Origin: a virus
Length of the DNA stretch: 64,000 nt
IMG/VR virus record: IMGVR_UViG_3300027833_001604
Span: 1 to 64,000 of that record
Strand: one strand, 5' to 3'
The notes below the pieces were generated by a model. The model was not told the DNA's origin, made no database searches, and saw nothing but the letters and a program-made list of their open reading frames with translations. How positions within the stretch are numbered: the stretch's first letter is position 1; every line of letters begins with the position of its first letter. Positions 2,609-55,002 of the stretch are shown piece by piece. The position numbers and the translations under genes are program-made.

Positions 2609-3490
2609 ATGCGATTACACAATTTATTTGAATCAGACACACCAGAATCATTAACTGAAGATTATCTTGATATTGAGATTACTGAAGACTTTGCTATTGA
2701 AAGCAGAGTATTGGAATTCACAGAAGATGGTGGAGCAATTATTGAGCTTGATGAACAAGCACAAGAATTAGTCGATTTAGACGAAGAAACCCTTAATGAA
2801 TTTATACCATTAGCAATTGGTGCCGCTGCATTAGGCATGACAGCCTATGATGCTTATAGAAATTACAAGCAATATAAAGCAGGCGAAATTACAAAGGGTG
2901 ATCTAGCAAAGCGTGTAGGCATGGATGCTGCTATTGGAATTACAACAGGCGGTATTGGTAAACTTGCAAGCAAGGCATACAAAGGTGCTAAAGCCGGTAT
3001 TAAATCATTTAAGACAAACAGAGCGGCAGCTAAAATTGATACACCAACTACTCCAGTTGCAAAAACTACTCCGCCACCAGTTGCTAAAACTACAAAACCA
3101 AAAGGTAAAGGCAAAGGTAAAATTGCAAGAAAATTAGATAACCTTGTTCCAAATAGTTATGGTAGTAGATCATCATATGATAACCCATTACAAAGAGCGG
3201 TAAAGAACTTCTCATTTGAAGATGTAAACGAAGCAGAATACCAAGGACGTAAAGTTAAACTAAACAAACCTATGCAAGGTGATGTTAAAAAGTCAAAAGT
3301 ATATGTAAAGAACCCAAAAGGCAACGTAGTTAAAGTAAACTTTGGTCACGGCGGAAGCAGTGCTAAAGGTAAAACTATGAGTATTAAAAAGAATAACCCA
3401 GCACGTAGAAAATCATTTCGTGCTAGACATAACTGTAGTAATCCAGGACCAAAGCATAAAGCACGTTATTGGTCATGTAAAGCGTGGTAA
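2609..3490 (+). CDS. putative head-associated modular protein with basic C-terminal domain
   Basis: MRLHNLFE leader; Gly/Ala-rich hydrophobic segment; C-terminal EAEYQGRKVKL...ARRKSFRARHNC...YWSC module typical of large phages. Confidence 0.65.
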   Translation: MRLHNLFESDTPESLTEDYLDIEITEDFAIESRVLEFTEDGGAIIELDEQAQELVDLDEETLNEFIPLAIGAAALGMTAYDAYRNYKQYKAGEITKGDLAKRVGMDAAIGITTGGIGKLASKAYKGAKAGIKSFKTNRAAAKIDTPTTPVAKTTPPPVAKTTKPKGKGKGKIARKLDNLVPNSYGSRSSYDNPLQRAVKNFSFEDVNEAEYQGRKVKLNKPMQGDVKKSKVYVKNPKGNVVKVNFGHGGSSAKGKTMSIKKNNPARRKSFRARHNCSNPGPKHKARYWSCKAW

Positions 3491-4467: not shown

Positions 4468-4715
4468 ACGTAAGTAAAGAAAACATTTGGCATTTCACTT
4501 GTGATCACTGCATGGGTTTTTGGAGTGTAGCAACCATGGATAACTGGAAGCCTACAAATTTATATTGCACTCATTGTGGTAAACAAAATAAAAATGACAT
4601 GTGTTCATGCGGGCACAAAATTGTAAATTGTGATTGTGCGCCTGGATGCAAGTGTGAATGTAACAAGCGTTACTTAGATTCCGAAACAAGTTTTGATATG
4701 GAGAAATACACATGA
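4464..4715 (+). CDS. Cys-rich zinc-finger/metallothionein-like protein
   Basis: CDHC, CTHC, CSCGH and CDCAPGCKCEC. Confidence 0.6.
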   Translation: MNVSKENIWHFTCDHCMGFWSVATMDNWKPTNLYCTHCGKQNKNDMCSCGHKIVNCDCAPGCKCECNKRYLDSETSFDMEKYT

Positions 4716-4939
4716 CACAAGACGATATTTATAGATTACAATATCTTGCAGGTATCATAGACAAGCAAGGTGATACTATAAAACCAACTGATGAATCTAA
4801 TATAAGTATTGTTGGAAGTGCCAAAGGTGAATACATGCGTAAGCATAATGTTAAGCCAGGCACTGATGAATGGTTTAAATTATGGTTCAGTAGACCAAAG
4901 TTAACTGGCGAAGACCCTACACCAAAGCAAGGCGGATGA
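4712..4939 (+). CDS. hypothetical phage protein (LxxLAGI motif)
   Basis: RLQYLAGI and PGTDEWFKLWF; ATGA overlap. Confidence 0.65.
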   Translation: MTQDDIYRLQYLAGIIDKQGDTIKPTDESNISIVGSAKGEYMRKHNVKPGTDEWFKLWFSRPKLTGEDPTPKQGG

Positions 4940-8127: not shown

Positions 8128-9252
8128 ATGAAAATAAATGAAATTAGCTGTTGGGACGGTTACAAAAAACAAGGCACTAAAAAAGGCACTGGTAAAAACA
8201 AAGGCAAGCGTGTAAACAATTGCGTTAAAGAAGCCATAACAAGACCAGGCGATGATACAGATCCATCATTGTGGCAAAGAATTAAAAATTTATACAAAAT
8301 GAATCCATTAGGTACTGATGATAACAAATCTAGACGAAATAAATTAGATGATATTGAATCACGCAGAGCTGACAAAATTCAAAAACGTAATAAACAAGAT
8401 ACAGTTATTAGACAAAAGAATAAAATTAAAGGCGCAGAAGTTGATCAATTATTACGTAATAGGCGCAGAGAAAAAGATGCAGTTGAAGACATGATCGCTG
8501 ATGCAATTGCACAAGACAAATTTGGAAAAGATCATCATGAACTTGATGATCTAGATCGTAAAAATGTTATTAGAACTTCTAGACATCTAGCAAACGATAT
8601 AGAAGCATACCCTGATTTACTTGATGATCCAGATTATCAAGATGATTTTAAGAAAATATATCCACAAGGGTTAGTCCCACAACTTGGAAAAAAATTAGAT
8701 GGAACAGATGCAGATCCAGATTATAGTTGGATGAATCCCTCAAAACCTAAACAAGAATTCAAGCATCCAGCATTTATGACAGTGTATCAATATAACCAAG
8801 ATGGATATGATGATAACCAACAAACAAGACAAATACAAGATAAAAATTATACTCGATCAAAAGTAGCAAAAGATAATAACATAAACTTTGAACCACGACA
8901 AGACATTTACAATCTTGCCACATCACAAGCAAATAAAGAAATAGATGCAAGAATTGCCACTGGAAAAGCTAATATTAAAAATATAGAAATAAAAAGAAAA
9001 CTTAATAAAGCAACAACTACTCCTGCTCCTACTGATAACAGTCAGAAGAAATTTGCAAGAGAAATACAAAACGAAGACGGTGTTATAGTTCCAGGTGTTA
9101 ACACTACAGTAGATGTTAAACCAGGCGAAACTGAACGCCAAGCTGCAAAGTTTGGTAATGGTAAAATTAAGCCACTAATGCCTAAACGAGGCAAGTCACA
9201 AACAATGAATACACTGTATAATCTAGGCTTAGCCGAAAAAGCTTCTAAGTAA
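8128..9252 (+). CDS. putative head-associated modular protein
   Basis: MKINEI leader; CWDGYKKQG...VNNCV module; GVIVPGVNTTVDV module. Confidence 0.6.
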   Translation: MKINEISCWDGYKKQGTKKGTGKNKGKRVNNCVKEAITRPGDDTDPSLWQRIKNLYKMNPLGTDDNKSRRNKLDDIESRRADKIQKRNKQDTVIRQKNKIKGAEVDQLLRNRRREKDAVEDMIADAIAQDKFGKDHHELDDLDRKNVIRTSRHLANDIEAYPDLLDDPDYQDDFKKIYPQGLVPQLGKKLDGTDADPDYSWMNPSKPKQEFKHPAFMTVYQYNQDGYDDNQQTRQIQDKNYTRSKVAKDNNINFEPRQDIYNLATSQANKEIDARIATGKANIKNIEIKRKLNKATTTPAPTDNSQKKFAREIQNEDGVIVPGVNTTVDVKPGETERQAAKFGNGKIKPLMPKRGKSQTMNTLYNLGLAEKASK

Positions 9253-9272: not shown

Positions 9273-10496
9273 GTGTCTACACCAAGCGAAAATCTAATTA
9301 AAAAATACAACAAATCATTCTGTGTTAAACCATTCACAGAAATATCTAATTCTGCGGTTGGACATAGACAACTTTGTTGTAGAAGCGAAACAATAATTAA
9401 AACAAGTGATGTTAGTAGTTCTTCTATAACCGAAGACTTTTTTAACCACTCAAAGATGAATGAGATAAGAAGAAAAATGTTAGCAGGTGAAACTGTTGAC
9501 GAATGTTGGATGTGTGCAGAATCTGAAGCTATGAGAGGAACATCACATAGAACATTTATAATGCAAGACTTCGATCAAGCTGAAGTTGATGAAATATTTA
9601 AAACTGGTAAAGTAGAATTAAGATCTTTAGACATACGTTTTGGGACTAAATGTAACCTAGCATGTGTAATGTGTAGTCCTGGTAGCAGTAGTTTAATTGC
9701 AAAAGAAGAAGCTGATGATGAATATCAAGTAGTAGACTTAAATGATTTTTCATTAGATGCTATTAAAAAACATTCAAAAGGTATTGTGTTATTCAAAACA
9801 ACAGGTGGCGAACCTATGTTGTTGCCAGCATATAAGAAAACACTTGAGTTTTTTGTAGAGAAAGACCTTGCAAAGAATATAGAGTTTACAACTATTACAA
9901 ACGGCACAGTTGATTACAGCAACTTAATGCCGTTAATGAATCAGTTTAAACATTTTAAAATTAGTCATAGTATAGATGCTGCAGACGAGTCATATAATTA
10001 TGTTAGATGGCCTGGAAAAATGTCACGCATAGAGCGTATACATAAATGTGTCATAGAAAATGCTAAACCATATAAAAACATAAGACTTGAGTTTGGTGCA
10101 ACTATACATGTATTAAATGTAAATCAAGTAGTAAAGATTGCCAAATACTTAGCTGGATTAGATCAAATTGTTGAAGATAATTATGCAGTAGACATGGTAT
10201 ACGATCCAGACTATATGCAACCAGGGTTAGTTCCTAAACAAGTAATAGATGATTTAGAAAATGAATACCACGAATGGAGTAAGGTAGCTCCAACAGGATA
10301 CAGAGGACGAAAAGAATTGTTTGACTTTATTAAGGTTTTGCGTTATAATTATGATAAAATAAATAGTAATAAGGAACACAAACAAGAATTACTTGATCAA
10401 CTAGAAGCTAAAACAATATTTTGGAAAGCTAAAAGAAACCTAGATGTTCGTGATTATATTCCATATTATGAGGTGATGCAAACTAAATGCGAATAG
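9273..10496 (+). CDS. radical SAM protein with N-terminal twitch/SPASM-like domain
   Basis: CVKPF...LCC...CWMC, then CNLACVMC and GGEP. Confidence 0.88.
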   Translation: MSTPSENLIKKYNKSFCVKPFTEISNSAVGHRQLCCRSETIIKTSDVSSSSITEDFFNHSKMNEIRRKMLAGETVDECWMCAESEAMRGTSHRTFIMQDFDQAEVDEIFKTGKVELRSLDIRFGTKCNLACVMCSPGSSSLIAKEEADDEYQVVDLNDFSLDAIKKHSKGIVLFKTTGGEPMLLPAYKKTLEFFVEKDLAKNIEFTTITNGTVDYSNLMPLMNQFKHFKISHSIDAADESYNYVRWPGKMSRIERIHKCVIENAKPYKNIRLEFGATIHVLNVNQVVKIAKYLAGLDQIVEDNYAVDMVYDPDYMQPGLVPKQVIDDLENEYHEWSKVAPTGYRGRKELFDFIKVLRYNYDKINSNKEHKQELLDQLEAKTIFWKAKRNLDVRDYIPYYEVMQTKCE

Positions 10497-11174: not shown

Positions 11175-11369
11175 ATGAAAATATATGACATCATAACAGA
11201 AGATGCTGAAGCAGGTTCTACAATGGCAGGTAATATTGCCAGTGTTTCTTTTCCATTATTTGGAAAAAAGAAGATGATCAGGCGTGCTGTTGATCCAAAA
11301 GGATATTTAGGTGACGGTAAGATTAAAAAACAATCTACTGGATACAATACGGAGGTTAAGTTAAAATGA
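11175..11369 (+). CDS. small putative head protein
   Basis: MKIYDIITE leader followed by DAEAGSTMAGNIASV. Confidence 0.7.
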   Translation: MKIYDIITEDAEAGSTMAGNIASVSFPLFGKKKMIRRAVDPKGYLGDGKIKKQSTGYNTEVKLK

Positions 11370-11670: not shown

Positions 11671-12795
11671 ATGAGCAATAAAATTGACAACACATTTAGC
11701 AAAGCAGCAATCGAATTAGCTAAATTAGAAAAAGCATTTGCTGAGAATAGCAAATTAGAAAAAGCAGTTATGGAATCAAACGGAGATGTTTCAGTTATAG
11801 CTGAAGTTAGATCTCACATAGCACAAGCAATTAAATCATTAACACCACAAACTATTACAGAAGGTGTATTAGATGATGATGACGATGATGGGTTTATGGC
11901 CCGCAGTCAACTATACTTCTTAGCCAGAGATGCAATTAAGTTGCACAGCGTTATAGATGATAGAGATGACTTGGAGCCATGGGTTCAAAGTAAAATTGCT
12001 CAAGCTAGTAAAGACATGGATTCAGTTCGTCGTTACACTGAATACAATGCCATGAAAGCTCAAGTAGAACCAGAGATGCAGCCAGAAATGCAACCAGCGC
12101 CAGAAGTAGAATCATTAGAAGAAGATCCAGTAGATCGTAAAATGCAAGTAACAAATGCTGATAAAGAGGGAAACACTCCAGCATGGCAACGTTATAAAGC
12201 AGGTGATCCTAGATATGAATACAAAGCACCAGTAAAAGAGTTTGCCGGAGCAGATGGTCCAGGTAAAGCAAGTATGCCACAGGGCATTGCACTAGCAGGT
12301 GATAGCATTTGGTTAAACAGAGACGGAATGCAGTATGCAGATGACGTTGTAACAATTACAGATTACAAAGTTGAAGAAACTGACGGTATGATTGAAGTAT
12401 GGGTAGAACATAATGCTCCTTGGGAAATTTATACAGACTCAGGTTTTGCAAAAGGTATCAGCAGAATACTAGGTATTGATGTTGACTGGAGTGAACAAGG
12501 TATGCAAGCACAAGGTGTAGCACATTTAGAAGGCGACACTGACCTAGATGAAGCTATTCGTCCAGTAAGAAGTGCAGCTTCTAAACTAAACCAAATTGGA
12601 CAAGGCGTTCGTAATAAAACTAATGACGAAACACCAATGAAAGTTGGCGAACAGAAAAAGAAAAAGAAATACAAAGAAGCAGTTGCAGAAGAAACTAAGT
12701 TTGATGATAAGCCAGAGCACAGTGAATTAAAAACAGTTGCACAGGACATGTTTAAGAATGCATTAGCAAACGCTAAGAAAAAAGCGAGGAAATAA
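11671..12795 (+). CDS. acidic modular putative head/core protein
   Basis: MARSQLY...LEPWVQSKI module; many [ILV]-x-E junctions. Confidence 0.65.
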   Translation: MSNKIDNTFSKAAIELAKLEKAFAENSKLEKAVMESNGDVSVIAEVRSHIAQAIKSLTPQTITEGVLDDDDDDGFMARSQLYFLARDAIKLHSVIDDRDDLEPWVQSKIAQASKDMDSVRRYTEYNAMKAQVEPEMQPEMQPAPEVESLEEDPVDRKMQVTNADKEGNTPAWQRYKAGDPRYEYKAPVKEFAGADGPGKASMPQGIALAGDSIWLNRDGMQYADDVVTITDYKVEETDGMIEVWVEHNAPWEIYTDSGFAKGISRILGIDVDWSEQGMQAQGVAHLEGDTDLDEAIRPVRSAASKLNQIGQGVRNKTNDETPMKVGEQKKKKKYKEAVAEETKFDDKPEHSELKTVAQDMFKNALANAKKKARK

Positions 12796-12797
12796 TT

Positions 12798-13835
12798 ATG
12801 AAAGCTGATCAATTAAACGAGAAATTCGACAAAGCAGATTGGGATGAAAATGAATCGCATAACCTACATACTGAAAATGCAGTAGAGCTTGCTCATGCAT
12901 TTGGAACTCGAGACGAAGTAGAAGCTATGGAAAGAATAGCTGATCAGCATATGCGTAGAGGACACATTCTACCACACGAAATTGAAGAACGTAGTGCATT
13001 AATGAAGAAGTATTATAACATGTTAGAGAATGAAACAAATCCAACTGTTAGATCTAAAATGGAAGGCTACAAAGTTATGCCTCCAATGGATAGCAAGTAT
13101 GTAGCACGTAAAGGACTTGAAGGTCCTTTTACTACATTAAGCGGTAAGGTTGTTTATTACGATCCTAAAGAAGGAAAGTATTACGATCCAGACACAGACA
13201 TTTATCTTTCATACGATGAATTCCAACAGTATGATAACGATTACAGTGGCATAGGTGATGAAGAAGCAGATGATTTTGTTAAAGATATTGAACCAAAAGA
13301 AACTGTAAAAGGCCCAAGAGGTCATTTAAGTTCTATTGTAAATGCAGGCAAAGACATAGAAGATGAATCGTTTGAAGTTAACCCAAATGCAGGACACAGA
13401 GACCAAATGGCACATCCAGAAAATCAAATGGGCACAGGCCCAGGAATTAAAACTAAGCCAAAGTTACGTCCAGCACAACTTGGTAAGAAATTTCCAAAAA
13501 CTAAGCCAAAGTTACGCCCAGATAATTTAGGCGAAGCAGGCGGATATTATACACAACCAGTATATGATATGATTGAACAGCATGGTTATGAAAAAGTAAT
13601 GCACGAACTATTAACAAGTTTAGATGCAGATGTAATTCAAGACTTTTTACAACGTGCAGAGTTTGATGAATCAGTAAGTGAGACACTAAGTCCAGAAGAG
13701 AAAAAACTAGTTGCTAAAATGTATAACAAAGATGGCACACTAACTGATCTAGGCAAAAAAGTTATGAGAGAAGGCAAATACGTTAGCGATGCACAACGCA
13801 AAGCGGTTCATGCCTCAAAAGCGGAGAAAAAATAA
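12798..13835 (+). CDS. modular putative head protein
   Basis: MKADQLNE leader; GLEGPF...YYDPKEGKYYDP, KTKPKLRP x2 and SDAQRKAVHA modules. Confidence 0.65.
   Translation: MKADQLNEKFDKADWDENESHNLHTENAVELAHAFGTRDEVEAMERIADQHMRRGHILPHEIEERSALMKKYYNMLENETNPTVRSKMEGYKVMPPMDSKYVARKGLEGPFTTLSGKVVYYDPKEGKYYDPDTDIYLSYDEFQQYDNDYSGIGDEEADDFVKDIEPKETVKGPRGHLSSIVNAGKDIEDESFEVNPNAGHRDQMAHPENQMGTGPGIKTKPKLRPAQLGKKFPKTKPKLRPDNLGEAGGYYTQPVYDMIEQHGYEKVMHELLTSLDADVIQDFLQRAEFDESVSETLSPEEKKLVAKMYNKDGTLTDLGKKVMREGKYVSDAQRKAVHASKAEKK
13449..13516 (+). repeat. 20-bp direct repeat encoding part of KTKPKLRP
   Basis: aaaactaagccaaagttacg at 13449-13468 and 13497-13516. Confidence 0.85.
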
Positions 13836-14866
13836 TGGGTATATTAAGCGATATAGTAAATGAAGATAAGGTAGAGATGTGCCCAGAAGCATGTTGTGGA
13901 AAGCCTATAACAGAATGCAAATGTGGACCAGATTGCGAACACTGTGATTGTCATTCAAAAAATGCAATAAACGAAGGCACACAAGGTTGTGCTGATTGCG
14001 AATGGATTAAAGACGAAACAGACGGCGACATCACTACATGTGATGATTGTGCTGCAGAAAAACGTGAAAAAACTAATGAAGCAGAAAAGCGTTGGAAACA
14101 AACTAGTATGTCTCCACAAGAAGCAATAGCAAAATACGGCAAACCAAACGTAAAAGTTAAAAAAGGTGCATTGCGTAATGGCGATGACATGGTAGAAGTA
14201 TTTGTTGAAGGTTATAAGATCCGTGACAAATCACGTGGATATGGCGTAGCAGATGCGACATATAAAACACGTAAAGCAGCCCAAGATGCGGCAATAATGA
14301 AAGCGGCTTCAAACGGCGGCGATTGGGAAGTATTTGTTGAATCATATTCACCAGGTGATGTAGCTGAACTAGTAGGTGATATACATTATTCTAACAATCA
14401 TTATGATAGAGATGAGAGAAAAAGCGAAATGCAGGCCGATGCAGCCAAGCTAATGATGGCAGCAAAAAGCACAGGTGACGAAGATATTATAGCCAGTGCA
14501 GAATCTGTAGAACATTTGTGTCATCACTATGATTATGATGAAGCCAAAGATATGTTAAACAATAAACTACAAGAACTTAATCAGTTAGTAGGTGGCAACG
14601 AATTAGAAGTAGAAGAATCATATTCACCAGGTGATGAAATGGAAGATGGCGTAGTAAGTAATTGCTGTGGTGCTCCATTAATGGACTACAATGATGGACA
14701 TGGTAGATGTAGTGATTGTAAAGAAATGGCAGCCGGTGAAACTGATGAAGAATACTACGAATCAAAAGTTATGCAAGCCAGAGAACAAATAGCTCAAGAA
14801 GAATCACCTGTAATCGAAGCGGATGCCGAACTACAAAGGATTCAAGACTTAGTTAAGTTTAGATAA
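13835..14866 (+). CDS. Cys-rich modular putative head protein
   Basis: MGILSDIVNE leader; three Cys clusters; duplicated EVFVE and ESYSPGD junctions. Confidence 0.65.
   Translation: MGILSDIVNEDKVEMCPEACCGKPITECKCGPDCEHCDCHSKNAINEGTQGCADCEWIKDETDGDITTCDDCAAEKREKTNEAEKRWKQTSMSPQEAIAKYGKPNVKVKKGALRNGDDMVEVFVEGYKIRDKSRGYGVADATYKTRKAAQDAAIMKAASNGGDWEVFVESYSPGDVAELVGDIHYSNNHYDRDERKSEMQADAAKLMMAAKSTGDEDIIASAESVEHLCHHYDYDEAKDMLNNKLQELNQLVGGNELEVEESYSPGDEMEDGVVSNCCGAPLMDYNDGHGRCSDCKEMAAGETDEEYYESKVMQAREQIAQEESPVIEADAELQRIQDLVKFR
14195..14636 (+). repeat. two pairs of exact direct repeats bounding protein modules
   Basis: gaagtatttgttgaa at 14195-14209 and 14327-14341; gaatcatattcaccaggtgatg at 14339-14360 and 14615-14636. 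Confidence 0.9.
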
Positions 14867-14877
14867 GGAATAATAAA

Positions 14878-15918
14878 ATGAGATTACACCATTTATTTGA
14901 AAAGTCAATTGATCCTAAGCAGGCTAAAAAGATGCAACGTATCTATGCCAAGATGCAAGAAAATCCAGCAGTTATTGACGAGCTATGGAAGACAGTATCA
15001 ACAATGACTGCCGCAGAGGGTGGTGAACTTAAAAATAGAATACTTGTAGCAGTAGATCCAAAAAATACAGGCAATGAACAAGACCAAACATATGCAGAAG
15101 GTTTTATCGAAGGCTTAGTTAATGCTATTGATAAAACAGAAGGCACCACTGAAGAACGCATTGCGTTTGCTAAAGGGCTAGGAAAAGTAAGTCATATCGA
15201 TTCAACTGCATTACTACAACCATTAGCTGGTTGGGGTGACTGGTTAACTGGTACTGATTTCAGTAAAAGACTATTTGAAACATTATTTCTTGACCCAGCG
15301 TTCTTACAAGCAAACAAAGGACCAGGTGAATTTGCACTTGCAATACTAAGTCCTGATATTTCACTTACTGGTGCTAAGGGCGATATTCAAGTCAAGGGTA
15401 AACCAATTGAAGTAAAGTCAGGAAAAACAAGTTCTGGTGGTAGATTAACACCAACTGATGGAACACTTGGACAGTTATACAAGAACAAAGAATTTTGGGC
15501 AGCTATTGCAGGTGAAGATGAAGCAAAAGCAGGACAGTTAGCAGGTGTTAATAAAGTTAATGCAAACAACTATGCACAATTCTTAGATCAATACAACTTA
15601 GGTCCTGAACAATCAACACAAATATTAAAAGCAATCTTTAAACACCCAGATGCAGCACCGATGGCACAGTCAATTGGTAGATCTGGAACAAATGTAACAG
15701 CAGCAGACTTAATTAAGTTGTCAGTAAAGAACTATGGTGCATCACAAGGTGACGATCATTTCCTAATCCTACAAAAAGACATTAGAGCAAGTTTATATTT
15801 TGATGTAGACAACTTAGATCCAGTGCTTAATAGACTATCCTTCTCATTACCATTAATTGATAGTGATGCAAGAAGCCAAGGTAAAGCACAAATTGGTATC
15901 TTAAAGAAATCAAGATAA
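14878..15918 (+). CDS. PD-(D/E)XK nuclease-like protein
   Basis: GPGEFALA...GDIQVKGKPIEVK signature; MRLHHLFE leader. Confidence 0.55.
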   Translation: MRLHHLFEKSIDPKQAKKMQRIYAKMQENPAVIDELWKTVSTMTAAEGGELKNRILVAVDPKNTGNEQDQTYAEGFIEGLVNAIDKTEGTTEERIAFAKGLGKVSHIDSTALLQPLAGWGDWLTGTDFSKRLFETLFLDPAFLQANKGPGEFALAILSPDISLTGAKGDIQVKGKPIEVKSGKTSSGGRLTPTDGTLGQLYKNKEFWAAIAGEDEAKAGQLAGVNKVNANNYAQFLDQYNLGPEQSTQILKAIFKHPDAAPMAQSIGRSGTNVTAADLIKLSVKNYGASQGDDHFLILQKDIRASLYFDVDNLDPVLNRLSFSLPLIDSDARSQGKAQIGILKKSR

Positions 15919-15919
15919 T

Positions 15920-16195
15920 ATGTGGGATACTATTACACAACTGGCAACAGAAAGGTTGTGGATTTACACAGCATTAGCAGGAAGTATATTTGGTGCATTA
16001 TTCATTTACTGGATAAGAGACACATACATTGCCTTTTGGGCAATAAATAAGTGGGAAGCAATACTAGACTTCCTAGTCAATCGTTGGGGCTGGAGCTGGT
16101 TTAAACATAACCCAGACGCATGGAAGGCCGCTAACCCAAAACTTACAAAAAAGATAGAAGAACTAGAAGCTCGTATTAAAAAACTAGAAAAGTAA
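15920..16195 (+). CDS. small membrane protein with C-terminal coiled coil
   Basis: One TM helix; KKIEELEARIKKLE. Confidence 0.65.
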   Translation: MWDTITQLATERLWIYTALAGSIFGALFIYWIRDTYIAFWAINKWEAILDFLVNRWGWSWFKHNPDAWKAANPKLTKKIEELEARIKKLEK

Positions 16196-16202: not shown

Positions 16203-16994
16203 ATGGATAAAGTATTAATAATAGGTTGTAGCTTTTCAGCAGGCTGGTATGAACTTCAGATTAAATATCCTCACATTTCAAAGGTTACGGAAGAAAAAGT
16301 ATTTCATGACTATGGATGGTATGACGAATTGCCTGACCATAATCAATATACAGTGTATGCACACCCAGGTGGTGGATATTTAAACTATGCTTACCTATTA
16401 TATCAACTTTATAACTCTGGAGAACTCCAGAAATATTCTAAATGTATAATACAAGAAACGTGGGAACCTCGTATTTCTTTGTATCAGACCGACAATTATT
16501 CGCTCGACAGAAAAGAAGAAAAAATACATTTTTATCTTAAACACTGCAAGTTAGAGTTTATAAAAAGTATGGCTCTTATGGAACAAGGTAACATAATTAA
16601 CACATTACAAACAACATTTGACGTAGAGCTAACCGTGCCGTGGAAAAATTACTTGACAGATATTGGAAATTCTATATACTTAGAGGCAGCAGTAGATAGT
16701 AGTGCATTAGCAATTGATCGTCTTTTACAAGATGCAAATATTCCTACTTATAGGTTTTGTGTCAACCTATCCAGTGTTGATAGATTCGACGATAGCATTA
16801 GTAACAATAAATGGCCACATATAAAACATATGAAACAGATGGATATGTTGAATGAAATGAGTGAAATATACAAACATCATTTATGCTGGCCAAAAGGAAC
16901 TCATTTCCCAGATGAAAGATCAGGCCATTTAACGAAGCATGGAACAATGTTACTTGGAAAACTAGTAGCAACTAAATTAACAGACTTTTTGTAA
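16203..16994 (+). CDS. SGNH-like protein (paralog 1)
   Basis: IIGCSFSAG ... GHLT..G. Confidence 0.6.
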   Translation: MDKVLIIGCSFSAGWYELQIKYPHISKVTEEKVFHDYGWYDELPDHNQYTVYAHPGGGYLNYAYLLYQLYNSGELQKYSKCIIQETWEPRISLYQTDNYSLDRKEEKIHFYLKHCKLEFIKSMALMEQGNIINTLQTTFDVELTVPWKNYLTDIGNSIYLEAAVDSSALAIDRLLQDANIPTYRFCVNLSSVDRFDDSISNNKWPHIKHMKQMDMLNEMSEIYKHHLCWPKGTHFPDERSGHLTKHGTMLLGKLVATKLTDFL

Positions 16995-17011: not shown

Positions 17012-17782
17012 TTGAAAGATAAAGTATTAATAATAGGTTGTAGCTTTTCAGCAGGCTGGTGGACACTCGCAGAGAATCAAGGTAAAAAGAATACAAGTGC
17101 ATGCGAAGATTTACATGACGATTATGGATGGTATGATGAGCTTCCTAGCGAGGATGAATACACAATCTATTCACATCCAGCTGGTGGATATTTAAATTAT
17201 GCTCATCTAATTAATAAACTATCAGATTCTGGAGAGCTAAGTCAATATTCTAAATGTATAATACAAGAAACATGGGAACCACGTGTTTGTTTATTTGTGC
17301 ATGATGATTATATGCCTGTTTTATCCAGAGACAATATACATTTATATCAACAACGTGGTTTAAAATCATTTGTAAAGAATATGATATTACCAGGTAAAAG
17401 TGGATTAGTAGATGATATATCAAAAAGATGGTTTACTAGGTTTAGCGATGCTCAAAAAAACTACTTGACAGATATTGGAAACTCTGTATACTTAGATACA
17501 GCAATAGAAAGCAGTGCATTAGCAATTGATCGCATATTACAAAATGCAAATATTCCTGCTTATAGATTTAATGTTAGTGAAAAGCAAAATCATTTAGAAC
17601 TATCACATATAAGACACATAACTGAACTAGATATACACAAAGAAATGTTTACAATTTTTGATATACATAGAACTGGATCAGGATTGCCAGAACCACTTGG
17701 CACGTTAGGTGGACATCTAACAAAACAAGGAACAAAACTAATGGGCAAAGCAGTAGCCAATAAATTAAAGGATTTTTTGTGA
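17012..17782 (+). CDS. SGNH-like protein (paralog 2, tandem duplicate)
   Basis: Same motifs; 43 bp identical between 16206-16248 and 17018-17060. Confidence 0.6.
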   Translation: MKDKVLIIGCSFSAGWWTLAENQGKKNTSACEDLHDDYGWYDELPSEDEYTIYSHPAGGYLNYAHLINKLSDSGELSQYSKCIIQETWEPRVCLFVHDDYMPVLSRDNIHLYQQRGLKSFVKNMILPGKSGLVDDISKRWFTRFSDAQKNYLTDIGNSVYLDTAIESSALAIDRILQNANIPAYRFNVSEKQNHLELSHIRHITELDIHKEMFTIFDIHRTGSGLPEPLGTLGGHLTKQGTKLMGKAVANKLKDFL

Positions 17783-18699: not shown

Positions 18700-18954
18700 A
18701 TGACATCATTTTCTGAAGCAGACGTAAACAAATTGAAGCATCTTATTAAAGAAGGCATTCAAGTAACACAAGAAGTAGAAACCTTGCGAGAAGGACTTCG
18801 CGATACAGTAAAAGCAATCGCAGAAGAGATGGATATTAAGCCATCAATTCTTAATAAAGCAGTAAAGGTTGCATATAAGGCAGAATTTGCCAAAGCACGT
18901 GATGAGTTCGATGAACTTGAAACAATCCTAACAACAGTGGGCCGTGATACTTAA
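18700..18954 (+). CDS. DsbA/GapR-like dsDNA-binding protein
   Basis: Helical 84 aa, LREGLRDTVKAIAEEMDIKPSILNKAVK pattern, directly upstream of the polymerase. Confidence 0.65.
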   Translation: MTSFSEADVNKLKHLIKEGIQVTQEVETLREGLRDTVKAIAEEMDIKPSILNKAVKVAYKAEFAKARDEFDELETILTTVGRDT

Positions 18955-21647
18955 TGAGTTATGTAGACGGTTATTTTAATAGAGATAAAGATTGTCTACA
19001 CGTAGTAGAACGAGTTAATGGTGAACGAAAGTTTAAAGACTTTCCTGCACGTTATCAGTTTTACTATAAAGACCCACGTGGCAAATATACAAGTATATTT
19101 GGCGATAAACTTGATCGTGTTGTATGCAACACAAGTAAAAAGTTTAATACAGAGAAAAAGATTCACGGACATAAAAAGTTATTTGAAAGTGATCTTAATC
19201 CACTTTTTAGATGCTTTTCCGAGAACTATGATCCTACGGAAACACCAGAACTGCACACAGCATTTTTCGATATTGAGACAGATTTTGATATGGAAAAGGG
19301 CTTTGCGCCACCTGAAGATCCGTTTAATAGCATAACAGCAATCAGTTTACATTTAAGTTGGTTGACAAGAACTATCTGTCTTACAATTAAACCTAAAACA
19401 TTAACTAAAGAACAAGCACAGGCAACATGTGATAAGTTTGAAGATACAGTATTGTTTGATACCGAAGCAGGTATGCTTGAAGCATTTTTAGACTTAATAG
19501 ATGATGCAGATATTTTAACTGGTTGGAACAGCGAAGGCTTTGATATTCCATATACTGTTAATCGTGTAGCAAGAGTATTAAGCAAAAGCCATACTAGGCA
19601 GTTTTGTTTATGGGGGCAGTATCCTAAACGTAGAACATTTGAACGCTTTGGTGCAGAAAACGAAACATTTGATTTACTAGGCAGAGTTCATTTAGACTAC
19701 ATGCAATTGTATCGTAAGTATACATATCACGAAATGCATTCCTATAGTTTGGATGCAATTGGCGAATATGAACTTAATGAACGTAAAGTTGATTATGAAG
19801 GAACACTAGATCAGTTATATAACAATGACTTTGAAACTTTTATTGCATATTCTAGGCAAGACGTTGACTTGTTGGTAAGACTGGACGCTAAATTACAGTT
19901 TATTGACTTAGCTAATGTGTTAGCACACTCTAACACAGTGCTTCTGCAAACAACAATGGGTGCGGTTGCACAAACAGACCAAGCTATTGTTAACGAAGCA
20001 CATCAGCAAGGCTTTATTGTTCCCGATAAGAAGTTTGATAAAGACACTACACAAGCTGCAGGCGCCTATGTTGCAGATCCTAAACGTGGAATGCACAAGT
20101 GGATTGGTAGTATGGATTTAAACTCACTGTATCCTAGTATTATTCGTAGTTGTAATATGAGCACCGAGACTATTATTGGTCAAGTGCGTCATACATTTAC
20201 ACGTGACTTGCTAGACAAGGCAAAAACAATTCCAGAAGCATGGGAGGGTCGTTTTGCAACACCAGAGTATGAACTTGTTATGGACAAAGATACAACAGAG
20301 CTCATGCATATTGACTTTGAAAACGGCGATGCGTTTGAAGCCACTGGCGCAGAGATATATGAAATTGTGTTTAACAGTGGACAACCTTGGATTATTAGTG
20401 CTAACGGAACTATCTTTACATACGAGAAAAAAGGTATTATTCCTGGCTTGCTAGAGCGTTGGTATGCTGAACGTAAAGAACTGCAAGCAAAGGCAGTAGC
20501 GGCACGTGAAGAAGGTGGCGATAAGTTTGCGTTTTGGGATAAGCGACAGTTGGTTAAAAAGATTAACTTGAACAGTTTGTATGGTGCGTTACTTAATCCT
20601 GGCAGTAGATTCTTTGACAGTAGACTAGGACAATCAACTACACTTACAGGGCGTAGTATTGCACGACATATGGCTGCAAAGTGTAATGAGATTATGGCAG
20701 GCGAATATGATCATGTAGGCAAAAGCATTGTTTATGGTGATACTGACTCTACATACTTTAGTGCATATCCTATTCTCAAGCCTGAGATAGACAAAGGTGA
20801 AATACAATGGGATAAAGATACTATTACAAGTTACTATGAAGCAGTGTGTGAAGAAGTCAACAAAACATTTCCTAACTATATGAATAAAGCGTTCCATACT
20901 ACAGTAGAGTTGGGTGCAATTATTGCCGCTGGTAGAGAAATATCAGCACAGTCAGGATTGTTTATTACTAAGAAGCGTTATGCAGCATTAGTATATGACA
21001 ACGAAGGCAAGCGTGAAGATAAAGATGGTAAGCCAGGCAAGGTAAAAGCAATGGGCTTGGACTTGAAGCGTAGTGATACGCCGGCATTTATGCAAGAGTT
21101 CCTTAAAGAATTGTTAATGACTACACTAACAGACGGCACTGAAGAAGATGTTATCAAACGTATTATTGAATTCCGCAAAGAGTTTCGTAGTATGGATAGT
21201 TGGAAAAAAGGCACCCCAAAACGTGTTAATAATCTAACAAAGTTCCGTGGTATTGTTAATAACTATGATAAGACAAAGAATAAAGCTATTAGAGATGGAC
21301 GTAGTGCTAACGATGTTAAGAAACCTGCATTACCAGGACACGTTAGAGCCGCATTAAATTGGAATACCTTGCGTGACATCAATAATGACAAGTATAGTAT
21401 TGAAATTAATGATGGTATGAAAACTATTGTTTGTAAATTAAAAGATAATCCACTAGGCTACACAAGTGTTGGGTATCCTACAGATGAAACACGTTTACCT
21501 CAATGGTTTACTGAACTACCATTCGATGATGACTTAATGGAACATACTATTATTACTAAAAAGTTAGAAAACTTATTAGGTGTTTTAAAGTGGGATTTGG
21601 ATGCTGGTGCGGCACGTAATACGTTTGCTGATTTGTTTGATTTTTAA
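18954..21647 (+). CDS. polB: family B DNA polymerase
   Basis: Exonuclease FDIETD and GWNSEGFDIPY; polymerase DLNSLYPS, KINLNSLYG, YGDTDS, KKRYA. Confidence 0.97.
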   Translation: MSYVDGYFNRDKDCLHVVERVNGERKFKDFPARYQFYYKDPRGKYTSIFGDKLDRVVCNTSKKFNTEKKIHGHKKLFESDLNPLFRCFSENYDPTETPELHTAFFDIETDFDMEKGFAPPEDPFNSITAISLHLSWLTRTICLTIKPKTLTKEQAQATCDKFEDTVLFDTEAGMLEAFLDLIDDADILTGWNSEGFDIPYTVNRVARVLSKSHTRQFCLWGQYPKRRTFERFGAENETFDLLGRVHLDYMQLYRKYTYHEMHSYSLDAIGEYELNERKVDYEGTLDQLYNNDFETFIAYSRQDVDLLVRLDAKLQFIDLANVLAHSNTVLLQTTMGAVAQTDQAIVNEAHQQGFIVPDKKFDKDTTQAAGAYVADPKRGMHKWIGSMDLNSLYPSIIRSCNMSTETIIGQVRHTFTRDLLDKAKTIPEAWEGRFATPEYELVMDKDTTELMHIDFENGDAFEATGAEIYEIVFNSGQPWIISANGTIFTYEKKGIIPGLLERWYAERKELQAKAVAAREEGGDKFAFWDKRQLVKKINLNSLYGALLNPGSRFFDSRLGQSTTLTGRSIARHMAAKCNEIMAGEYDHVGKSIVYGDTDSTYFSAYPILKPEIDKGEIQWDKDTITSYYEAVCEEVNKTFPNYMNKAFHTTVELGAIIAAGREISAQSGLFITKKRYAALVYDNEGKREDKDGKPGKVKAMGLDLKRSDTPAFMQEFLKELLMTTLTDGTEEDVIKRIIEFRKEFRSMDSWKKGTPKRVNNLTKFRGIVNNYDKTKNKAIRDGRSANDVKKPALPGHVRAALNWNTLRDINNDKYSIEINDGMKTIVCKLKDNPLGYTSVGYPTDETRLPQWFTELPFDDDLMEHTIITKKLENLLGVLKWDLDAGAARNTFADLFDF

Positions 21648-33083: not shown

Positions 33084-34460
33084 ATGGGTCAACTGAGAAA
33101 TCCTAATCTCGAAACTATGAAGCGAGAACTTGATGAAATGGGATTTAACTCAGAGACATTTTGCACGGCTCCATATCTTAACATTGACTTAGATCAAGAC
33201 GGAGCAATATATACCTGTTATCGTGGTAAAACTAATGTAGGTGACTGGAAAAAAGAAAGCCTGAAAGATAGTTTTAATGGACCACAGATGCAAAAGATTC
33301 GTAAAGATCTTTACGAAGGTAGACAAAACAAAAACTGTCGTAGTTGTTGGGCCGCAGAGAAAAAAGGTAGTAACAGTCCTAGAGTGCATTTTTATTATGA
33401 TTTTATGGATCAATATTATGAAGATAATCCAGAAGGCGCCCAAGAATATTTAGATAAAATTAAAGCAGACTATATAAAAGGCAAGATAGCAGACATAAAG
33501 CGTGGCGAACTAAGACCAAGTAGTTTATGTAATCTACGTTGTATGCATTGTGGTCCACATAGTAGCACTAAGTGGGTAGAAACACTAACCAAAGGTGACA
33601 ATGCAAAAGTTTATATGGAAAACGAAGGCTTAATGGAAAACGGCAATGGTATTATTAATCATAACATTATTGACACAGGCCTAACAACATACTATAAAAA
33701 TACATTAACAAGTGACACAGATTACGAAGAAGATCTATTAGAAGTTTTAGATTCACTTGAGCATATAAGTTTTACAGGTGGCGAGCCGTTGCTTACACCA
33801 GAACACCCACGTTACTTACAACATTTTATCGACAGTGGAAATGCTAAAAATATGTATTTGGAATACAATACAAATCTAAATATCAAAAACATTGAAAAGT
33901 TCTTTCCATTATGGGAGAATTTTAAGCACTTACATATTAGAGCAAGTATTGATGCTAGTTTTGACACTTACGAATACTTTAGAACATACGGTAAAATTGA
34001 TCTACTTAAAGATTGTCTACAAAAAATACAAAAATTCCGTTTAGAAAAAATGGGTGGCAAAAGACGTATGAAAATCAATGCTACTGTAACACACAATTTG
34101 TTTAGTGCGTTACGTTGGAAAGATCTCACAAGAGATTGGACTACACATGGCGTAGCATTTCACGTAAGTCTAATTATTGACCATCCTATAAGTGTTATAT
34201 ACATGCCAAAAGAATTGCGTGAAAAAGCAGTTGCGGAGATGCAGTGGTGTTATGACAATATAGAGCAATTCACAGACGACGAAGATTATATAGATATATA
34301 CAGACATCACACAGAACAGTGTATCAAATACACAGCAGAACAAAATCACGAAAGTGATAAGTTCCCTGAACAAACTATAAAGTATATTGAGTTCTGTGAC
34401 AAAACAAGTGGTAAAAGCTACAAAGATTATTTTCCAGAATTAATAAAATATTTAGAATAA
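33084..34460 (+). CDS. radical SAM protein with N-terminal twitch/SPASM-like domain
   Basis: CTAPY...TC...CRSC, then CNLRCMHC, GGEP, YNTN. Confidence 0.88.
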   Translation: MGQLRNPNLETMKRELDEMGFNSETFCTAPYLNIDLDQDGAIYTCYRGKTNVGDWKKESLKDSFNGPQMQKIRKDLYEGRQNKNCRSCWAAEKKGSNSPRVHFYYDFMDQYYEDNPEGAQEYLDKIKADYIKGKIADIKRGELRPSSLCNLRCMHCGPHSSTKWVETLTKGDNAKVYMENEGLMENGNGIINHNIIDTGLTTYYKNTLTSDTDYEEDLLEVLDSLEHISFTGGEPLLTPEHPRYLQHFIDSGNAKNMYLEYNTNLNIKNIEKFFPLWENFKHLHIRASIDASFDTYEYFRTYGKIDLLKDCLQKIQKFRLEKMGGKRRMKINATVTHNLFSALRWKDLTRDWTTHGVAFHVSLIIDHPISVIYMPKELREKAVAEMQWCYDNIEQFTDDEDYIDIYRHHTEQCIKYTAEQNHESDKFPEQTIKYIEFCDKTSGKSYKDYFPELIKYLE

Positions 34461-44286: not shown

Positions 44287-45564
44287 GTGAAAAGTTTGAA
44301 AAAAATCACGTTGCTTATGCTTGCAACGGTAATTCTTAGTGTCGTTATCAACTCACACTATAGAAGCATACAAGAAACATTACACGAAGGAATAAGTTGG
44401 GTTTGGAAACAAAACGAAACAGTTGGAGAAGCCCTATATGATACAAATGCATTTCTATTTAACGGCGATGCTTTTGATCATGAACGTAGAATAAAAGATT
44501 ACATCTATAGTTCATTTCCTAGCGTTGTAATGATAAATGTTTTTCCTAACGAACAATCCCAAAATAACCCATTAGTTCAACGCAAGGCTGGACGAGGCAC
44601 TGGATTTTTCGTGTCTGTAGATGATGAATCAGCAACTATAATGACTAACTATCATGTTATAGAAGGTTACATAGGTTCTGAAAATTTACTAGATCTTAAA
44701 ATCAATACTGCAATAGATATGTGGGTATACGAAGCCACAATCATTGGGTATGACATAGTGGCAGACATTGCCCTTATTAAAATACTTAAAAAAGATAACG
44801 AAAAATGGGAAGCACTAGAGTTTGCAGATCCAGAAGAAATCAGCGAAGGCGATCCTGTTGTAGTTATTGGTCATGGTATGAGCTTACCTTGGAACAGCAC
44901 ACAGGGTATTGTTACATATGACGGCAGATTTGGACAACGTCCTTATTCATTAATGCTACAAGTTGATGCAGTTATTAACCAAGGTAACAGTGGCGGACCT
45001 GTTATAGGCACTGACCGTAAAGTATATGGAGTTGCACAATCAATACTAAGCCCAGGTAGAGCAATACCAGGTTGGGATGGTGTAGGATTAGCAGTTGGCT
45101 CCAGACAAGCAAAACGTAGCATGGATTATATTCTATCTGATGCATACGCAGAAAAAGGTTATGTTCCATATTCAGACTTATTGTTTAATACAAAAAACTT
45201 TGAAATAAAAAGTGTTATCGACACTAAACGCGAAGATAGACACATGTCATACTTTAATATACTAGAACCTGATCTAGATGTAAAAGCACCAACTATGGAA
45301 GTTGAACCAGTAAAACTAAATGCAGGACAGATTGCCGGAATGCAAGAAGGTGATATCATACTAGAGTTAAACGGTAAAAGTGTTTATACAGCATTTAAAA
45401 TATTCATCGAAACTATGTATGCAATACCAGGCGACACAGCAACGATTAAAGTATTACGTGGCGAAGAAGAATTAGAGTTTACTTTAGTTTACCAAGAAAT
45501 AGACTTTCAAAAACTAAAAAAATCTATCGAAGACCGTAATAAGTTGCAAAGAGGCGGCAAATAA
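44287..45564 (+). CDS. HtrA/DegS-like trypsin serine protease with PDZ domain
   Basis: N-terminal TM, TNYHV, DIAL, NQGNSGGP, AGMQEGDIILELNG. Confidence 0.9.
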   Translation: MKSLKKITLLMLATVILSVVINSHYRSIQETLHEGISWVWKQNETVGEALYDTNAFLFNGDAFDHERRIKDYIYSSFPSVVMINVFPNEQSQNNPLVQRKAGRGTGFFVSVDDESATIMTNYHVIEGYIGSENLLDLKINTAIDMWVYEATIIGYDIVADIALIKILKKDNEKWEALEFADPEEISEGDPVVVIGHGMSLPWNSTQGIVTYDGRFGQRPYSLMLQVDAVINQGNSGGPVIGTDRKVYGVAQSILSPGRAIPGWDGVGLAVGSRQAKRSMDYILSDAYAEKGYVPYSDLLFNTKNFEIKSVIDTKREDRHMSYFNILEPDLDVKAPTMEVEPVKLNAGQIAGMQEGDIILELNGKSVYTAFKIFIETMYAIPGDTATIKVLRGEEELEFTLVYQEIDFQKLKKSIEDRNKLQRGGK

Positions 45565-54856: not shown

Positions 54857-54858
54857 TA

Positions 54859-54975: not shown

Positions 54976-55002
54976 ATGTTTCTCATAACGTTACTATTTA
55001 TT

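What the first reader, a model, noticed from the sequence alone, without database searches (positions are those of the whole stretch)
11671..14866. Bead-on-a-string polyproteins with Glu-ended junctions and exact DNA repeats at module borders
Seen: three adjacent ORFs consist of short, compositionally distinct modules separated by x-x-E sites (ITE|GVLD, LEE|DPV, VKE|FAG, LDE|AIR; LNE|KFD, KME|GYK, LGE|AGG, MRE|GKY; VNE|DKV, INE|GTQ, TNE|AEK, FVE|GYK, FVE|SYS, VEE|SYS, VIE|ADA). In 13835-14866 one module is bracketed by an exact 15-bp repeat (14195 and 14327) and the next by an exact 22-bp repeat (14339 and 14615), both overlapping the Glu codon. Inference: the prohead protease releases a set of small peptides, and modules are gained or lost by recombination at the cleavage-site DNA, forming an integron-like accretion system for injected micro-effectors.
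Basis: partly seen in the sequence, partly recalled or inferred. Interest (0 to 1): 0.8.

Follow-up and report, generated by a model that had tools for sequence, protein, structure and literature searches.

The report
Swappable mini-protein chains in phage
Three neighbouring genes of an uncultured marine giant phage are chains of small, freely swappable protein modules joined at the motif that T4-type head proteases cut, so they are probably loaded into the capsid and cut into mini-proteins, though no cutting or packaging has been measured.

Summary
ORFs 11671-12795, 12798-13835 and 13835-14866 are mosaics of 35-110-residue modules. The 15-bp and 22-bp exact repeats sit where stated.

Hundreds of metagenomic relatives carry the same modules in other orders and combinations. 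Across 128 distinct module junctions, the residue before the module is Glu in 118, and P3 is L/I/V/M/F in 90. DNA similarity of up to 98% stops exactly at the junction codons.

The two repeats are footprints of two insertions into an EVFVE|SYSPGD junction that three relatives still have intact.

The junction motif matches the L/I-x-E rule of T4 protease gp21. Related contigs and the nearest cultured phages encode that protease. The N-terminal leaders resemble T4 capsid-targeting sequences. A motif in these proteins resembles the C-terminus of the relatives' scaffold protein.

So "head-loaded, protease-cut polyprotein" is the best reading (about 0.6). It is inferred only: this 109-kb fragment holds no head genes, and no proteomics exist.

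"Integron-like" is not supported, and "injected effectors" is speculation.

The scan has noted the same pattern on other phage genomes. I found no paper describing it. It is a new variant of the T4 internal-protein system.

The parts
11671..12795 (+). ORF A, 374 aa. It has a conserved N-terminal region (1-151) followed by swappable pieces. Candidate joints lie after E64, E151, E190 and E294.
   Evidence: There are full-length relatives at 60-98% identity. There are also mosaics that keep only residues 1-140 in front of other modules (P0072, P0105).
12124..12240 (+). ORF A module, residues 152-190 (DPVDRKMQVTNADKEGNTPAWQRYKAG...VKE).
   Evidence: HSP starts at 153 and ends at 185. The same module occurs in the T4-like cyanophage S-SM2 gp186.
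12798..13835 (+). ORF B, 345 aa. It comprises the leader MKADQLNE, a helical piece (9-89), a beta-rich piece (90 to about 150), a roughly 100-residue disordered basic stretch, the AGGYYTQP module (247-325) and the GKYVSDAQRKAVHASKAEKK tail.
   Evidence: It has 1298 relatives, most of which match only 17-50% of its length.
13065..13250 (+). ORF B beta-rich module (GLEGPF..YYDPKEGKYYDPDTDIYLSYDEF).
   Evidence: pLDDT 82-88. phrog_13298 E = 5e-14. It stands alone as the 83-aa KVP40.0154 in an early-gene region.
13536..13772 (+). ORF B module AGGYYTQPVYDMIEQHGYEKVMHELL.., preceded by LGE.
   Evidence: It occurs in 16 or more different contexts, always after x-x-E. DNA identity to many loci is 80-91% from 13532.
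13835..14866 (+). ORF C, 343 aa: a leader, six modules and a C-terminal motif.
13835..13864 (+). 10-residue leader MGILSDIVNE, a candidate capsid-targeting propeptide.
   Evidence: The same leader precedes four different first modules in relatives. It has the same length and h-x-E end as the T4 IPII/IPIII leader MKTYQEFIAE.
13865..13975 (+). M1, a Cys-rich module (8 Cys, 2 His) ending in INE.
13976..14080 (+). M2, a CxxC..CxxC module (GTQGCADCEW..TNE).
   Evidence: It occurs in about 50 contexts, always after x-x-E. DNA HSPs start at 13969-13973.
14081..14209 (+). M3, AEKRWKQTSMSP..DDMVEVFVE.
   Evidence: It occurs in 80 or more contexts. There are 37 distinct DNA copies that are about 90% alike even at synonymous sites. 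HSPs end exactly at 14209.
14210..14341 (+). M4, GYKIRDK..GGDWEVFVE, an insertion relative to L019, L032 and L053.
   Evidence: It is bracketed by the 15-bp repeat. It is a well-predicted beta-alpha-beta unit with pLDDT 82-90. In other proteins it ends in EVIEE.
14342..14617 (+). M5, a helical module, the second insertion.
   Evidence: It is bracketed by the 22-bp repeat. In P0002 and P0003 it starts with SMNEGGND or SINEDGYD instead of SYSPGD.
14618..14818 (+). M6, SYSPGD..CC..CxxC module plus a helix, ending in VIE.
   Evidence: It occurs in about 58 contexts after x-x-E. In L005, similarity resumes at 14822.
14819..14863 (+). C-terminal motif ADAELQRIQDLVKFR.
   Evidence: It belongs to the E[IV]xRL[KR][ED]L[SA]GI / ..RIQDLVKFR motif class. 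That class gives 65 of 71 hits in module proteins. It resembles the scaffold C-termini IEIKRLAGLN and INLKKLAGIN of relatives.
14195..14209 (+). First copy of the 15-bp exact repeat (EVFVE).
14327..14360 (+). Second copy of the 15-bp repeat overlapping the first copy of the 22-bp repeat. Together they form the 34-bp ancestral EVFVE|SYSPGD junction.
   Evidence: It is 100% identical to L019, L032 and L053, where M3 and M6 are directly joined.
14615..14636 (+). Second copy of the 22-bp exact repeat (ESYSPGD).

Best explanation
ORFs A, B and C belong to a hypervariable locus upstream of the DNA polymerase gene in uncultured marine T4-superfamily giant phages. Each protein is a chain of small, independently folding modules: zinc-ribbon-like, Cys-rich, small alpha/beta, helical and basic disordered pieces. 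The modules are drawn from a pool shared by hundreds of related phages.

Shown here:
- Modules occur in many orders and combinations.
- Nearly every joint reads [V/L/I/M]-x-E followed by a small residue.
- Module DNA is exchanged between phages with breakpoints at the joint codons.
- The two exact repeats in ORF C mark two insertions into a formerly direct EVFVE|SYSPGD joint, made by crossovers in short shared coding sequence.

Inferred:
- A short N-terminal leader, and possibly the scaffold-tail-like RLKELSGI/RIQDLVKFR motif, bring the chains into the prohead core.
- The T4 gp21-type head protease cuts after the joint Glu residues and frees the modules. Some modules then stay in the head with the DNA.

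What the freed modules do is unknown. Possibilities are anti-defence or host take-over after injection, DNA charge balancing, or simply core filling.
For: Mosaicism:
- ORFs C, B and A have 394, 1298 and 285 relatives. Most match only 12-50% of the query at up to 98% identity.
- Seven tracked modules occur in 45 different orders in 194 proteins, with both orders seen for several pairs.

Joint rule:
- P1 is E in 118 of 128 contexts, P3 is hydrophobic in 90 of 128 and P2 is N in 48 of 128 (lists).

DNA breakpoints:
- HSPs of 80-98% identity stop at 14209 and start at about 14075 or 13969.
- The nearest relative L005 is 96% identical over 14822-16116 and 93% over 13769-14209, with nothing between. 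This is a cassette swap bounded by FVE| and VIE|.
- The locus is syntenic next to the polymerase gene, but the number and size of its genes vary.

Protease link:
- The gp21 motif is L/I-x-E, and T4 capsid-targeting sequences are 10-19 residues (PMC9026906).
- T4 leaders read from the record are MKTYQEFIAE|A, MKTFKEF..ITE|A and gp24 MAKINELLRE|S. Compare MGILSDIVNE|D, MKADQLNE|K and the relative's MKTFTEYLKE|G.
- Peptidase_S77 and Gp23 are present on two long contigs that carry the modules. Peptidase_S77 is also present in Atu_ph07, Vibrio phage 2.275.O, KVP40 and the T4 control.
- The capsid-protein propeptides of these relatives have VME|S, VLE|N and LSE|S/A sites.
- The scaffold-tail-like motif is enriched in module proteins.

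Structure:
- pTM is 0.31 and 0.26, with low pLDDT at 1-12, 41-52, 82-91 and 258-270 of ORF C, and at 80-91, 153-253 and 326-345 of ORF B.
Against: - No cut, packaging or injection has been observed for any member.
- The window's own record (109 kb, about 30% complete) has no protease, capsid or scaffold gene. The protease link therefore rests on relatives.
- The locus lies among replication and metabolic genes, and the T4 late-promoter motif TATAAATA is not enriched.
- One module stands alone as a small protein in an early region of KVP40.
- Joints 125|126 and 169|170 sit inside confidently predicted beta strands.
- Pieces of 35-45 residues might leave the head as T4 scaffold fragments do (PMC9026906, PMC5694885).
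- The junction contexts are not phylogenetically independent.
Confidence: 0.6

Rival explanations
1. The chains are not cut. They act as whole multi-domain, partly disordered cytoplasmic proteins, for example early host take-over or hub proteins. In this reading the h-x-E joints are only a favoured linker.
For: - The locus lies next to the DNA polymerase gene among non-structural genes.
- A stand-alone homologous module sits in the KVP40 early region.
- No late-promoter signal was found.
- Two joints lie inside predicted strands.
Against: - A plain linker does not explain an almost invariant Glu with hydrophobic P3 across 128 contexts.
- It does not explain the free permutation of order.
- It does not explain the T4-like leaders.
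- It does not explain the scaffold-tail-like motif.
- T4 internal-protein genes also lie outside the head gene cluster.
Confidence: 0.2
2. The chains are loaded and cut, but they serve only as auxiliary core or scaffold material, like T4 gp67, gp68 and gp22. The fragments are expelled, so there is no injected cargo.
For: - T4 core proteins are cut into small pieces that mostly leave the head (PMC9026906, PMC5694885).
- These proteins share a motif with the scaffold C-terminus.
- Many pieces are acidic.
Against: - Filler would not need conserved Zn-ribbon-like and alpha/beta folds.
- It would not explain module DNA kept at about 90% identity, even at synonymous sites, in 37 contexts.
- It would not explain hypervariability between near-identical phages.
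- T4 does keep some internal peptides. This last point is from my own knowledge and was not checked here.
Confidence: 0.13
3. The chains are multi-core precursors of modified peptides (RiPP-like), matured by the many radical SAM enzymes of this phage and released by a leader-type peptidase.
For: - About eleven radical SAM paralogues lie in the record.
- One lies just upstream at 9273-10496, and a counterpart sits beside the modular gene in L035, L053 and L038.
- M1 is Cys-rich.
Against: - The enzymes are N-terminal-twitch radical SAM proteins (NF033640), not known peptide maturases. Matches to maturase families are far below their cut-offs.
- Most modules have no Cys.
- The chains are 340-940 residues of folded modules.
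- The joint motif and leaders fit the head protease.
Confidence: 0.04
4. The chains are cut by another phage protease, the HtrA-like Trypsin_2 + PDZ protein at 44287-45564.
For: A trypsin-fold protease with a PDZ domain is encoded in the window.
Against: - It has an N-terminal membrane or signal segment, so it probably faces the periplasm.
- HtrA-type enzymes are not Glu-specific (my own knowledge).
- The motif matches gp21.
Confidence: 0.03

Closest known systems
Phage T4 internal proteins IPI, IPII, IPIII and Alt: capsid-targeting sequence plus gp21 processing
   Same: - A short N-terminal leader ends in h-x-E.
- The lineage has an S77 head protease.
- The genes lie outside the head cluster.
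- Content varies strongly between close relatives, as described for T-even internal proteins (PMC9026906, PMC3012670).
   Different: - T4 internal proteins are single proteins with one N-terminal cut (Alt is cut at both ends). Here 5-8 unrelated mini-modules are strung in one chain with a site at each joint.
- Modules are shuffled as cassettes between genes and phages.
- Most pieces are acidic or Zn-binding rather than basic.
- No experimental data exist.
T4 prohead core proteins gp22, gp67 and gp68, which are cut at many sites
   Same: - There are many L/I-x-E sites per chain.
- A C-terminal motif resembles that of the relatives' scaffold, and T4 gp68 ends in ..RRKALGLS.
   Different: Core proteins are conserved, non-modular and coiled-coil or acidic. 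These chains are mosaics of folded modules and are hypervariable.
Polyvalent proteins of phages and conjugative elements (Iyer et al. 2017, PMC5512222)
   Same: Many unrelated domains sit in one polypeptide, and they are predicted to be packaged and delivered with the DNA.
   Different: - Polyvalent proteins are built from recognisable enzymatic conflict domains, often with their own zincin-like peptidase or a MuF domain.
- Here no module matches Pfam.
- The modules are 35-110 residues long, and release would depend on the head protease.
Processed head and ejection proteins of phiKZ-like giant phages (SPN3US, PMC5694885)
   Same: Many head proteins are cut after Glu by the head protease, with several sites per substrate.
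   Different: - The motif differs (A/S/G-x-E) and the propeptides are long.
- There is no cassette-type module shuffling.
- The lineage is different.

Membership tests
T4-type head-internal proteins (CTS-tagged gp21 substrates) | N-terminal propeptide of about 10-19 residues ending in L/I-x-E | tested here: met
   ORF C has MGILSDIVNE|D and ORF B has MKADQLNE|K. Relatives have MKTFTEYLKE|G, MKANQIHE|G and MKLSQLIE|S. T4 has MKTYQEFIAE|A, MKTFKEF..ITE|A and MAKINELLRE|S. ORF A is unclear: its first [LIVMF]xE site is at residue 25. This is sequence resemblance only.
T4-type head-internal proteins (CTS-tagged gp21 substrates) | The phage encodes a gp21-type (Peptidase_S77) prohead protease | tested here: inconclusive
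   None was found in the window's own 109-kb record, which is about 30% complete. It is present on two module-bearing contigs and in the nearest cultured relatives, with T4 as a positive control.
T4-type head-internal proteins (CTS-tagged gp21 substrates) | The protein is found in proheads or virions and is cut at the predicted site | not testable with these tools
   No cultured member exists. tblastn of ORF C against 50,697 phage records found nothing.
T4-type head-internal proteins (CTS-tagged gp21 substrates) | The locus is hypervariable between closely related phages | tested here: met
   In L005 the flanks are 93-96% identical and ORF D is 99% identical, while the middle of ORF C is replaced and ORFs A and B are only 50-58% identical in pieces.
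Polyvalent proteins (Iyer et al. 2017) | A chain of recognisable conflict-related enzymatic domains, often with MuF, a portal link or a zincin-like peptidase | tested here: not met
   No Pfam domain passes its cut-off in ORFs A, B or C. PHROG hits are only to unknown-function families.
Integron or gene-cassette system | A site-specific integrase with attI/attC recombination sites | tested here: not met
   There is no Phage_integrase match in the record, and the control search hit 14 of 14 genomes. The repeats are in-frame coding sequence with no structured inverted repeats at the borders. The record is a fragment.
RiPP precursor with radical SAM maturase | An adjacent maturase of a known peptide-modifying family and short leader-core precursors | tested here: not met
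   The neighbouring enzyme matches NF033640 (N-terminal twitch rSAM) at 239 bits. Matches to peptide-maturase families score 20-37 bits against cut-offs of 300-650. The precursors are 343-374 residues of folded modules.

The most novel reading that the evidence does not exclude
Abundant marine giant phages run a natural cartridge system. Exchangeable Zn-binding and other mini-proteins are written into a few polyprotein genes, loaded into every capsid through a short leader and a scaffold-tail mimic, cut free by the head protease, and injected with the DNA as a fast-evolving set of anti-defence or take-over micro-effectors. New modules are acquired by recombination in the shared joint-coding DNA.
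Probability: 0.3. Interest if true: 0.85.

Novelty: new variant of a known kind. Interest (0 to 1): 0.7.

Why it matters
If the chains are loaded and cut as inferred, T4's one-protein, one-tag internal-protein system has a polyprotein form in widespread ocean phages. A handful of genes would then supply dozens of interchangeable mini-proteins to the virion.

That would matter in three ways:
- It would give a directly testable source of new small anti-defence or host-control proteins.
- It would explain a large class of 'hypothetical' mosaic genes in marine viromes. Each ORF here has hundreds to more than a thousand relatives.
- It would offer natural rules (leader, joint motif, scaffold-tail motif) for loading foreign cargo into large phage capsids.

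Even if the chains are never cut, the strict Glu-ended joint grammar and cassette exchange at up to 98% DNA identity are an unusually clean case of domain shuffling in viruses.

Tried and rejected
- **Family and structure searches.** Pfam and PHROGs gave no informative family for ORFs A, B or C. Foldseek of the ORF C model against the PDB found nothing at E <= 0.001. The ESM Atlas returned only unnamed viral clusters for the ORF A N-terminus.
- **Cultured phages.** tblastn of ORF C found no match. For ORFs A and B, only single modules matched, in KVP40-like vibriophages and T4-like cyanophages.
- **Head genes.** A search for Peptidase_S77 in the own record found none, because it is a fragment. 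The other 45 kb of the record holds only metabolic and replication genes. Eight more module-bearing contigs of 45-80 kb also lack the protease; all are 13-22% complete.
- **Late promoter.** The T4 motif TATAAATA occurs 6 times against about 11 expected, so there is no signal.
- **Junction-specific DNA conservation.** Rejected. The whole of M3 is about 90% conserved at synonymous sites, not only its ends.
- **Integron idea.** No integrase was found.
- **RiPP idea.** The rSAM enzymes are not of a known peptide-maturase family.
- **HtrA-like protease.** It is membrane-anchored or periplasmic.
- I therefore could not fetch the DNA of the closest protein relatives P0004 and P0013, and used IMG/VR loci instead.
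- **Capsid cut site.** The exact cleavage site in relatives cannot be fixed. A BLAST alignment places T4 Glu65 on VME|S, and LSE|S lies 12 residues later.
Full report
**What the window is.** The window is the first 64 kb of a 109-kb IMG/VR virus record judged about 30% complete. Its family-B DNA polymerase (18954-21647) is 49% identical to those of Agrobacterium phage Atu_ph07 and Sinorhizobium phage Phosso. It is 43-44% identical to those of Vibrio phage 2.275.O, GAP32 and CBB. So this is an uncultured giant phage of the T4 superfamily. Several relatives of its proteins come from TARA ocean samples.

ORFs A (11671-12795), B (12798-13835) and C (13835-14866) are as described. The exact repeats are as described:
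- 15 bp at 14195 and 14327, encoding EVFVE.
- 22 bp at 14339 and 14615, encoding ESYSPGD.

**The proteins are mosaics.**
- ORF C has 394 relatives, ORF B has 1298 and ORF A has 285, in a 5.8-billion-protein collection. Most match only 12-50% of the query, often at 75-98% identity.
- Local BLAST shows the same blocks in different orders and with different neighbours.
- Blocks of A, B and C are mixed within single proteins elsewhere.
- For seven tracked modules I counted 45 different orders in 194 proteins. Both orders occur for M2/M3, M3/M6, M2/M6 and AGG/M3.
- ORF A is the least mosaic. It has full-length relatives at 60-98% identity, but its first 140 residues also head quite different chains.

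**The joints obey a rule.**
- I projected each module onto every hit and read the flanks.
- In 128 distinct six-residue left flanks, the residue before the module is Glu in 118 (background 10%).
- P3 is L/I/V/M/F in 90 (background 22%) and P2 is Asn in 48 (background 5%).
- The first residue of the module is usually A, S, G or D.
- Short spacers such as SMNE, SVNE and SINE often give two sites in a row (FVE|SMNE|).
- These contexts are related by descent, so the p-values overstate independence. The effect is still far too large to be a composition artefact.

**The exchange is visible in DNA.**
- In blastn of 11671-14866 against 65 IMG/VR loci, dozens of HSPs at 80-98% identity end exactly at 14209, the last base of EVFVE.
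- Those HSPs start at about 14075 (TNE|AEKRWK) or about 13969 (INE|GTQGC).
- The closest relative, L005, is 96% identical over 14822-16116 and 93% over 13769-14209, with nothing between.
- So the middle of ORF C has been swapped between FVE| and VIE|, while the next gene (14878-15918) is 99% identical in protein.
- The locus sits upstream of a small ORF and the polymerase gene in many relatives. It holds from one 690-940-residue gene to several 200-400-residue genes.

**Origin of the two repeats.**
- The 34 bp at 14327-14360 (EVFVESYSPGD) is 100% identical to L019, L032 and L053, where M3 and M6 are directly joined.
- Elsewhere M4 ends in EVIEE.
- Elsewhere M5 starts with SMNEGGND or SINEDGYD.
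- So M4 and M5 were each joined into that junction by crossovers in a few shared bases, which left the 15-bp and 22-bp duplications.
The mechanism looks like ordinary recombination at short coding homology.
- There is no integrase in the record and there are no att-like structures.
- Synonymous sites are about 90% conserved across the whole of M3 in 37 distinct DNA copies, not only at its ends. This points to recent spread of whole cassettes.

**Fold predictions.**
- ORF C: mean pLDDT 65.5, pTM 0.31. Segments below 50 are at 1-12, 41-52, 82-91, 178-190 and 258-270, which is at or next to five joints. M4 and M5 are confidently folded.
- ORF B: mean pLDDT 54, pTM 0.26. It has a confident beta-rich island at 100-150 and a disordered stretch at 153-253.
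- One caution: joints 125|126 and 169|170 lie inside predicted strands.

**Why the head protease is the best candidate.**
- T4 gp21 cuts after Glu in L/I-x-E. T4 internal proteins carry 10-19-residue capsid-targeting leaders that end in that motif (PMC9026906).
- From the T4 record I read IPII/IPIII MKTYQEFIAE|A, IPI MKTFKEF..ITE|A and gp24 MAKINELLRE|S.
- ORF C starts MGILSDIVNE|D and ORF B starts MKADQLNE|K.
- Relatives start MKTFTEYLKE|G, MKANQIHE|G and MKLSQLIE|S. One leader heads several different first modules.
- Two long module-bearing contigs (306 kb and 121 kb) encode Peptidase_S77 and a Gp23 capsid protein.
- Atu_ph07, Vibrio phage 2.275.O and KVP40 also encode Peptidase_S77, with T4 as the positive control.
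- The capsid propeptides on those two contigs contain VME|S, VLE|N and LSE|S/A.
- Their scaffold proteins end in ..IEIKRLAGLN and ..INLKKLAGIN.
- A very similar element, E[IV]xRL[KR]ELSGI or ..LQRIQDLVKFR, occurs at the ends of or between modules. It gave 65 of 71 hits in the 168 module proteins among 1543 ORFs.
- ORF C ends with this element.

**What remains inference.**
- Nothing shows cutting, packaging or injection.
- The window's own record has no head genes.
- The locus lies among replication and metabolic genes, and the T4 late-promoter motif is not enriched.
- One module stands alone in an early region of KVP40.
- In T4, small fragments mostly leave the head (PMC9026906, PMC5694885).
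- I put 0.6 on loading and cutting, and 0.3 on the further claim that the pieces are injected effectors.

**Rivals.**
- Uncut multi-domain proteins: 0.2.
- Cut but expelled core filler: 0.13.
- RiPP-like precursors: 0.04. The neighbouring radical SAM enzymes are N-terminal-twitch proteins (NF033640), not known maturases.
- Cutting by the membrane-anchored HtrA-like protease at 44287-45564: 0.03.

**Comparison with what is known.**
- The nearest system is the T4 internal-protein system. The differences are the polyprotein build, a site at every joint, cassette exchange, and the small, mostly acidic or metal-binding pieces.
- These are not polyvalent proteins in the sense of PMC5512222, because no recognisable domains are present.
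- Full-text searches found no paper describing such chains.
- The scan's own notebook holds similar notes from other phage genomes, including follow-ups that reached the same reading. Those are unchecked AI notes and are not counted as evidence.
- One such note led me to check the gp24 leader.

Noticed in passing
window 11175-11369 (+): This 64-aa ORF has the leader MKIYDIITE|D. Its next residues, DAEAGSTMAGNIASVS, copy the capsid protein of a relative around its predicted maturation site (LSE|SANAGTTMAGNVASLN): 58% identity over 19 residues, pairwise E = 1e-5. An MIRRAV motif follows, like the capsid VIRRVM. It may be a mimic of the capsid N-arm.
   Followed up: partly
window 9273-10496, 33084-34460, 51945-62383 and record 63943-73417: About eleven paralogous radical SAM genes lie in a 109-kb fragment. 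Most are N-terminal-twitch radical SAM proteins (NF033640, 184-375 bits). A counterpart sits beside the modular gene in L035, L053 and L038. Their substrate is unknown.
   Followed up: partly
window 44287-45564 (+): A phage-encoded HtrA-like protease (Trypsin_2 plus PDZ) with an N-terminal hydrophobic segment, which probably faces the envelope.
   Followed up: partly
window 14878-15918 (+): The gene after ORF C starts MRLHHLFE|K, nearly the same leader as ORF 2609-3490 (MRLHNLFE|S). It is 99% identical in the relative L005, while the modular genes beside it are scrambled.
   Followed up: partly
window 2609-3490 (+) and 8128-9252 (+): Two further leader-bearing ORFs share modules with the same pool. 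One module is AEYQGRKV..RHNC..YWSC (48% identical to the P0080 group). The other is the CWDGYKK..GKRVNNCVKE peptide, which also appears inside relatives of ORF B.
   Followed up: partly
window 4712-4939 (+): A 75-aa ORF begins MTQDDIYRLQYLAGII. The scaffold-tail-like LAGI motif is therefore at its N-terminus, as in some relatives (MDLRDLVKLAGIVN).
   Followed up: no
window 16203-16994 and 17012-17782 (+): Tandem paralogues (47% identity) share the motif LIIGCSFSAGW. No Pfam family matched the one that was scanned, 16203-16994.
   Followed up: no
L032 66-3077 (+): A relative carries two tandem copies of the AGGYYTQP module separated by DLDESVNE. Module dosage can therefore be raised by duplication.
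   Followed up: no
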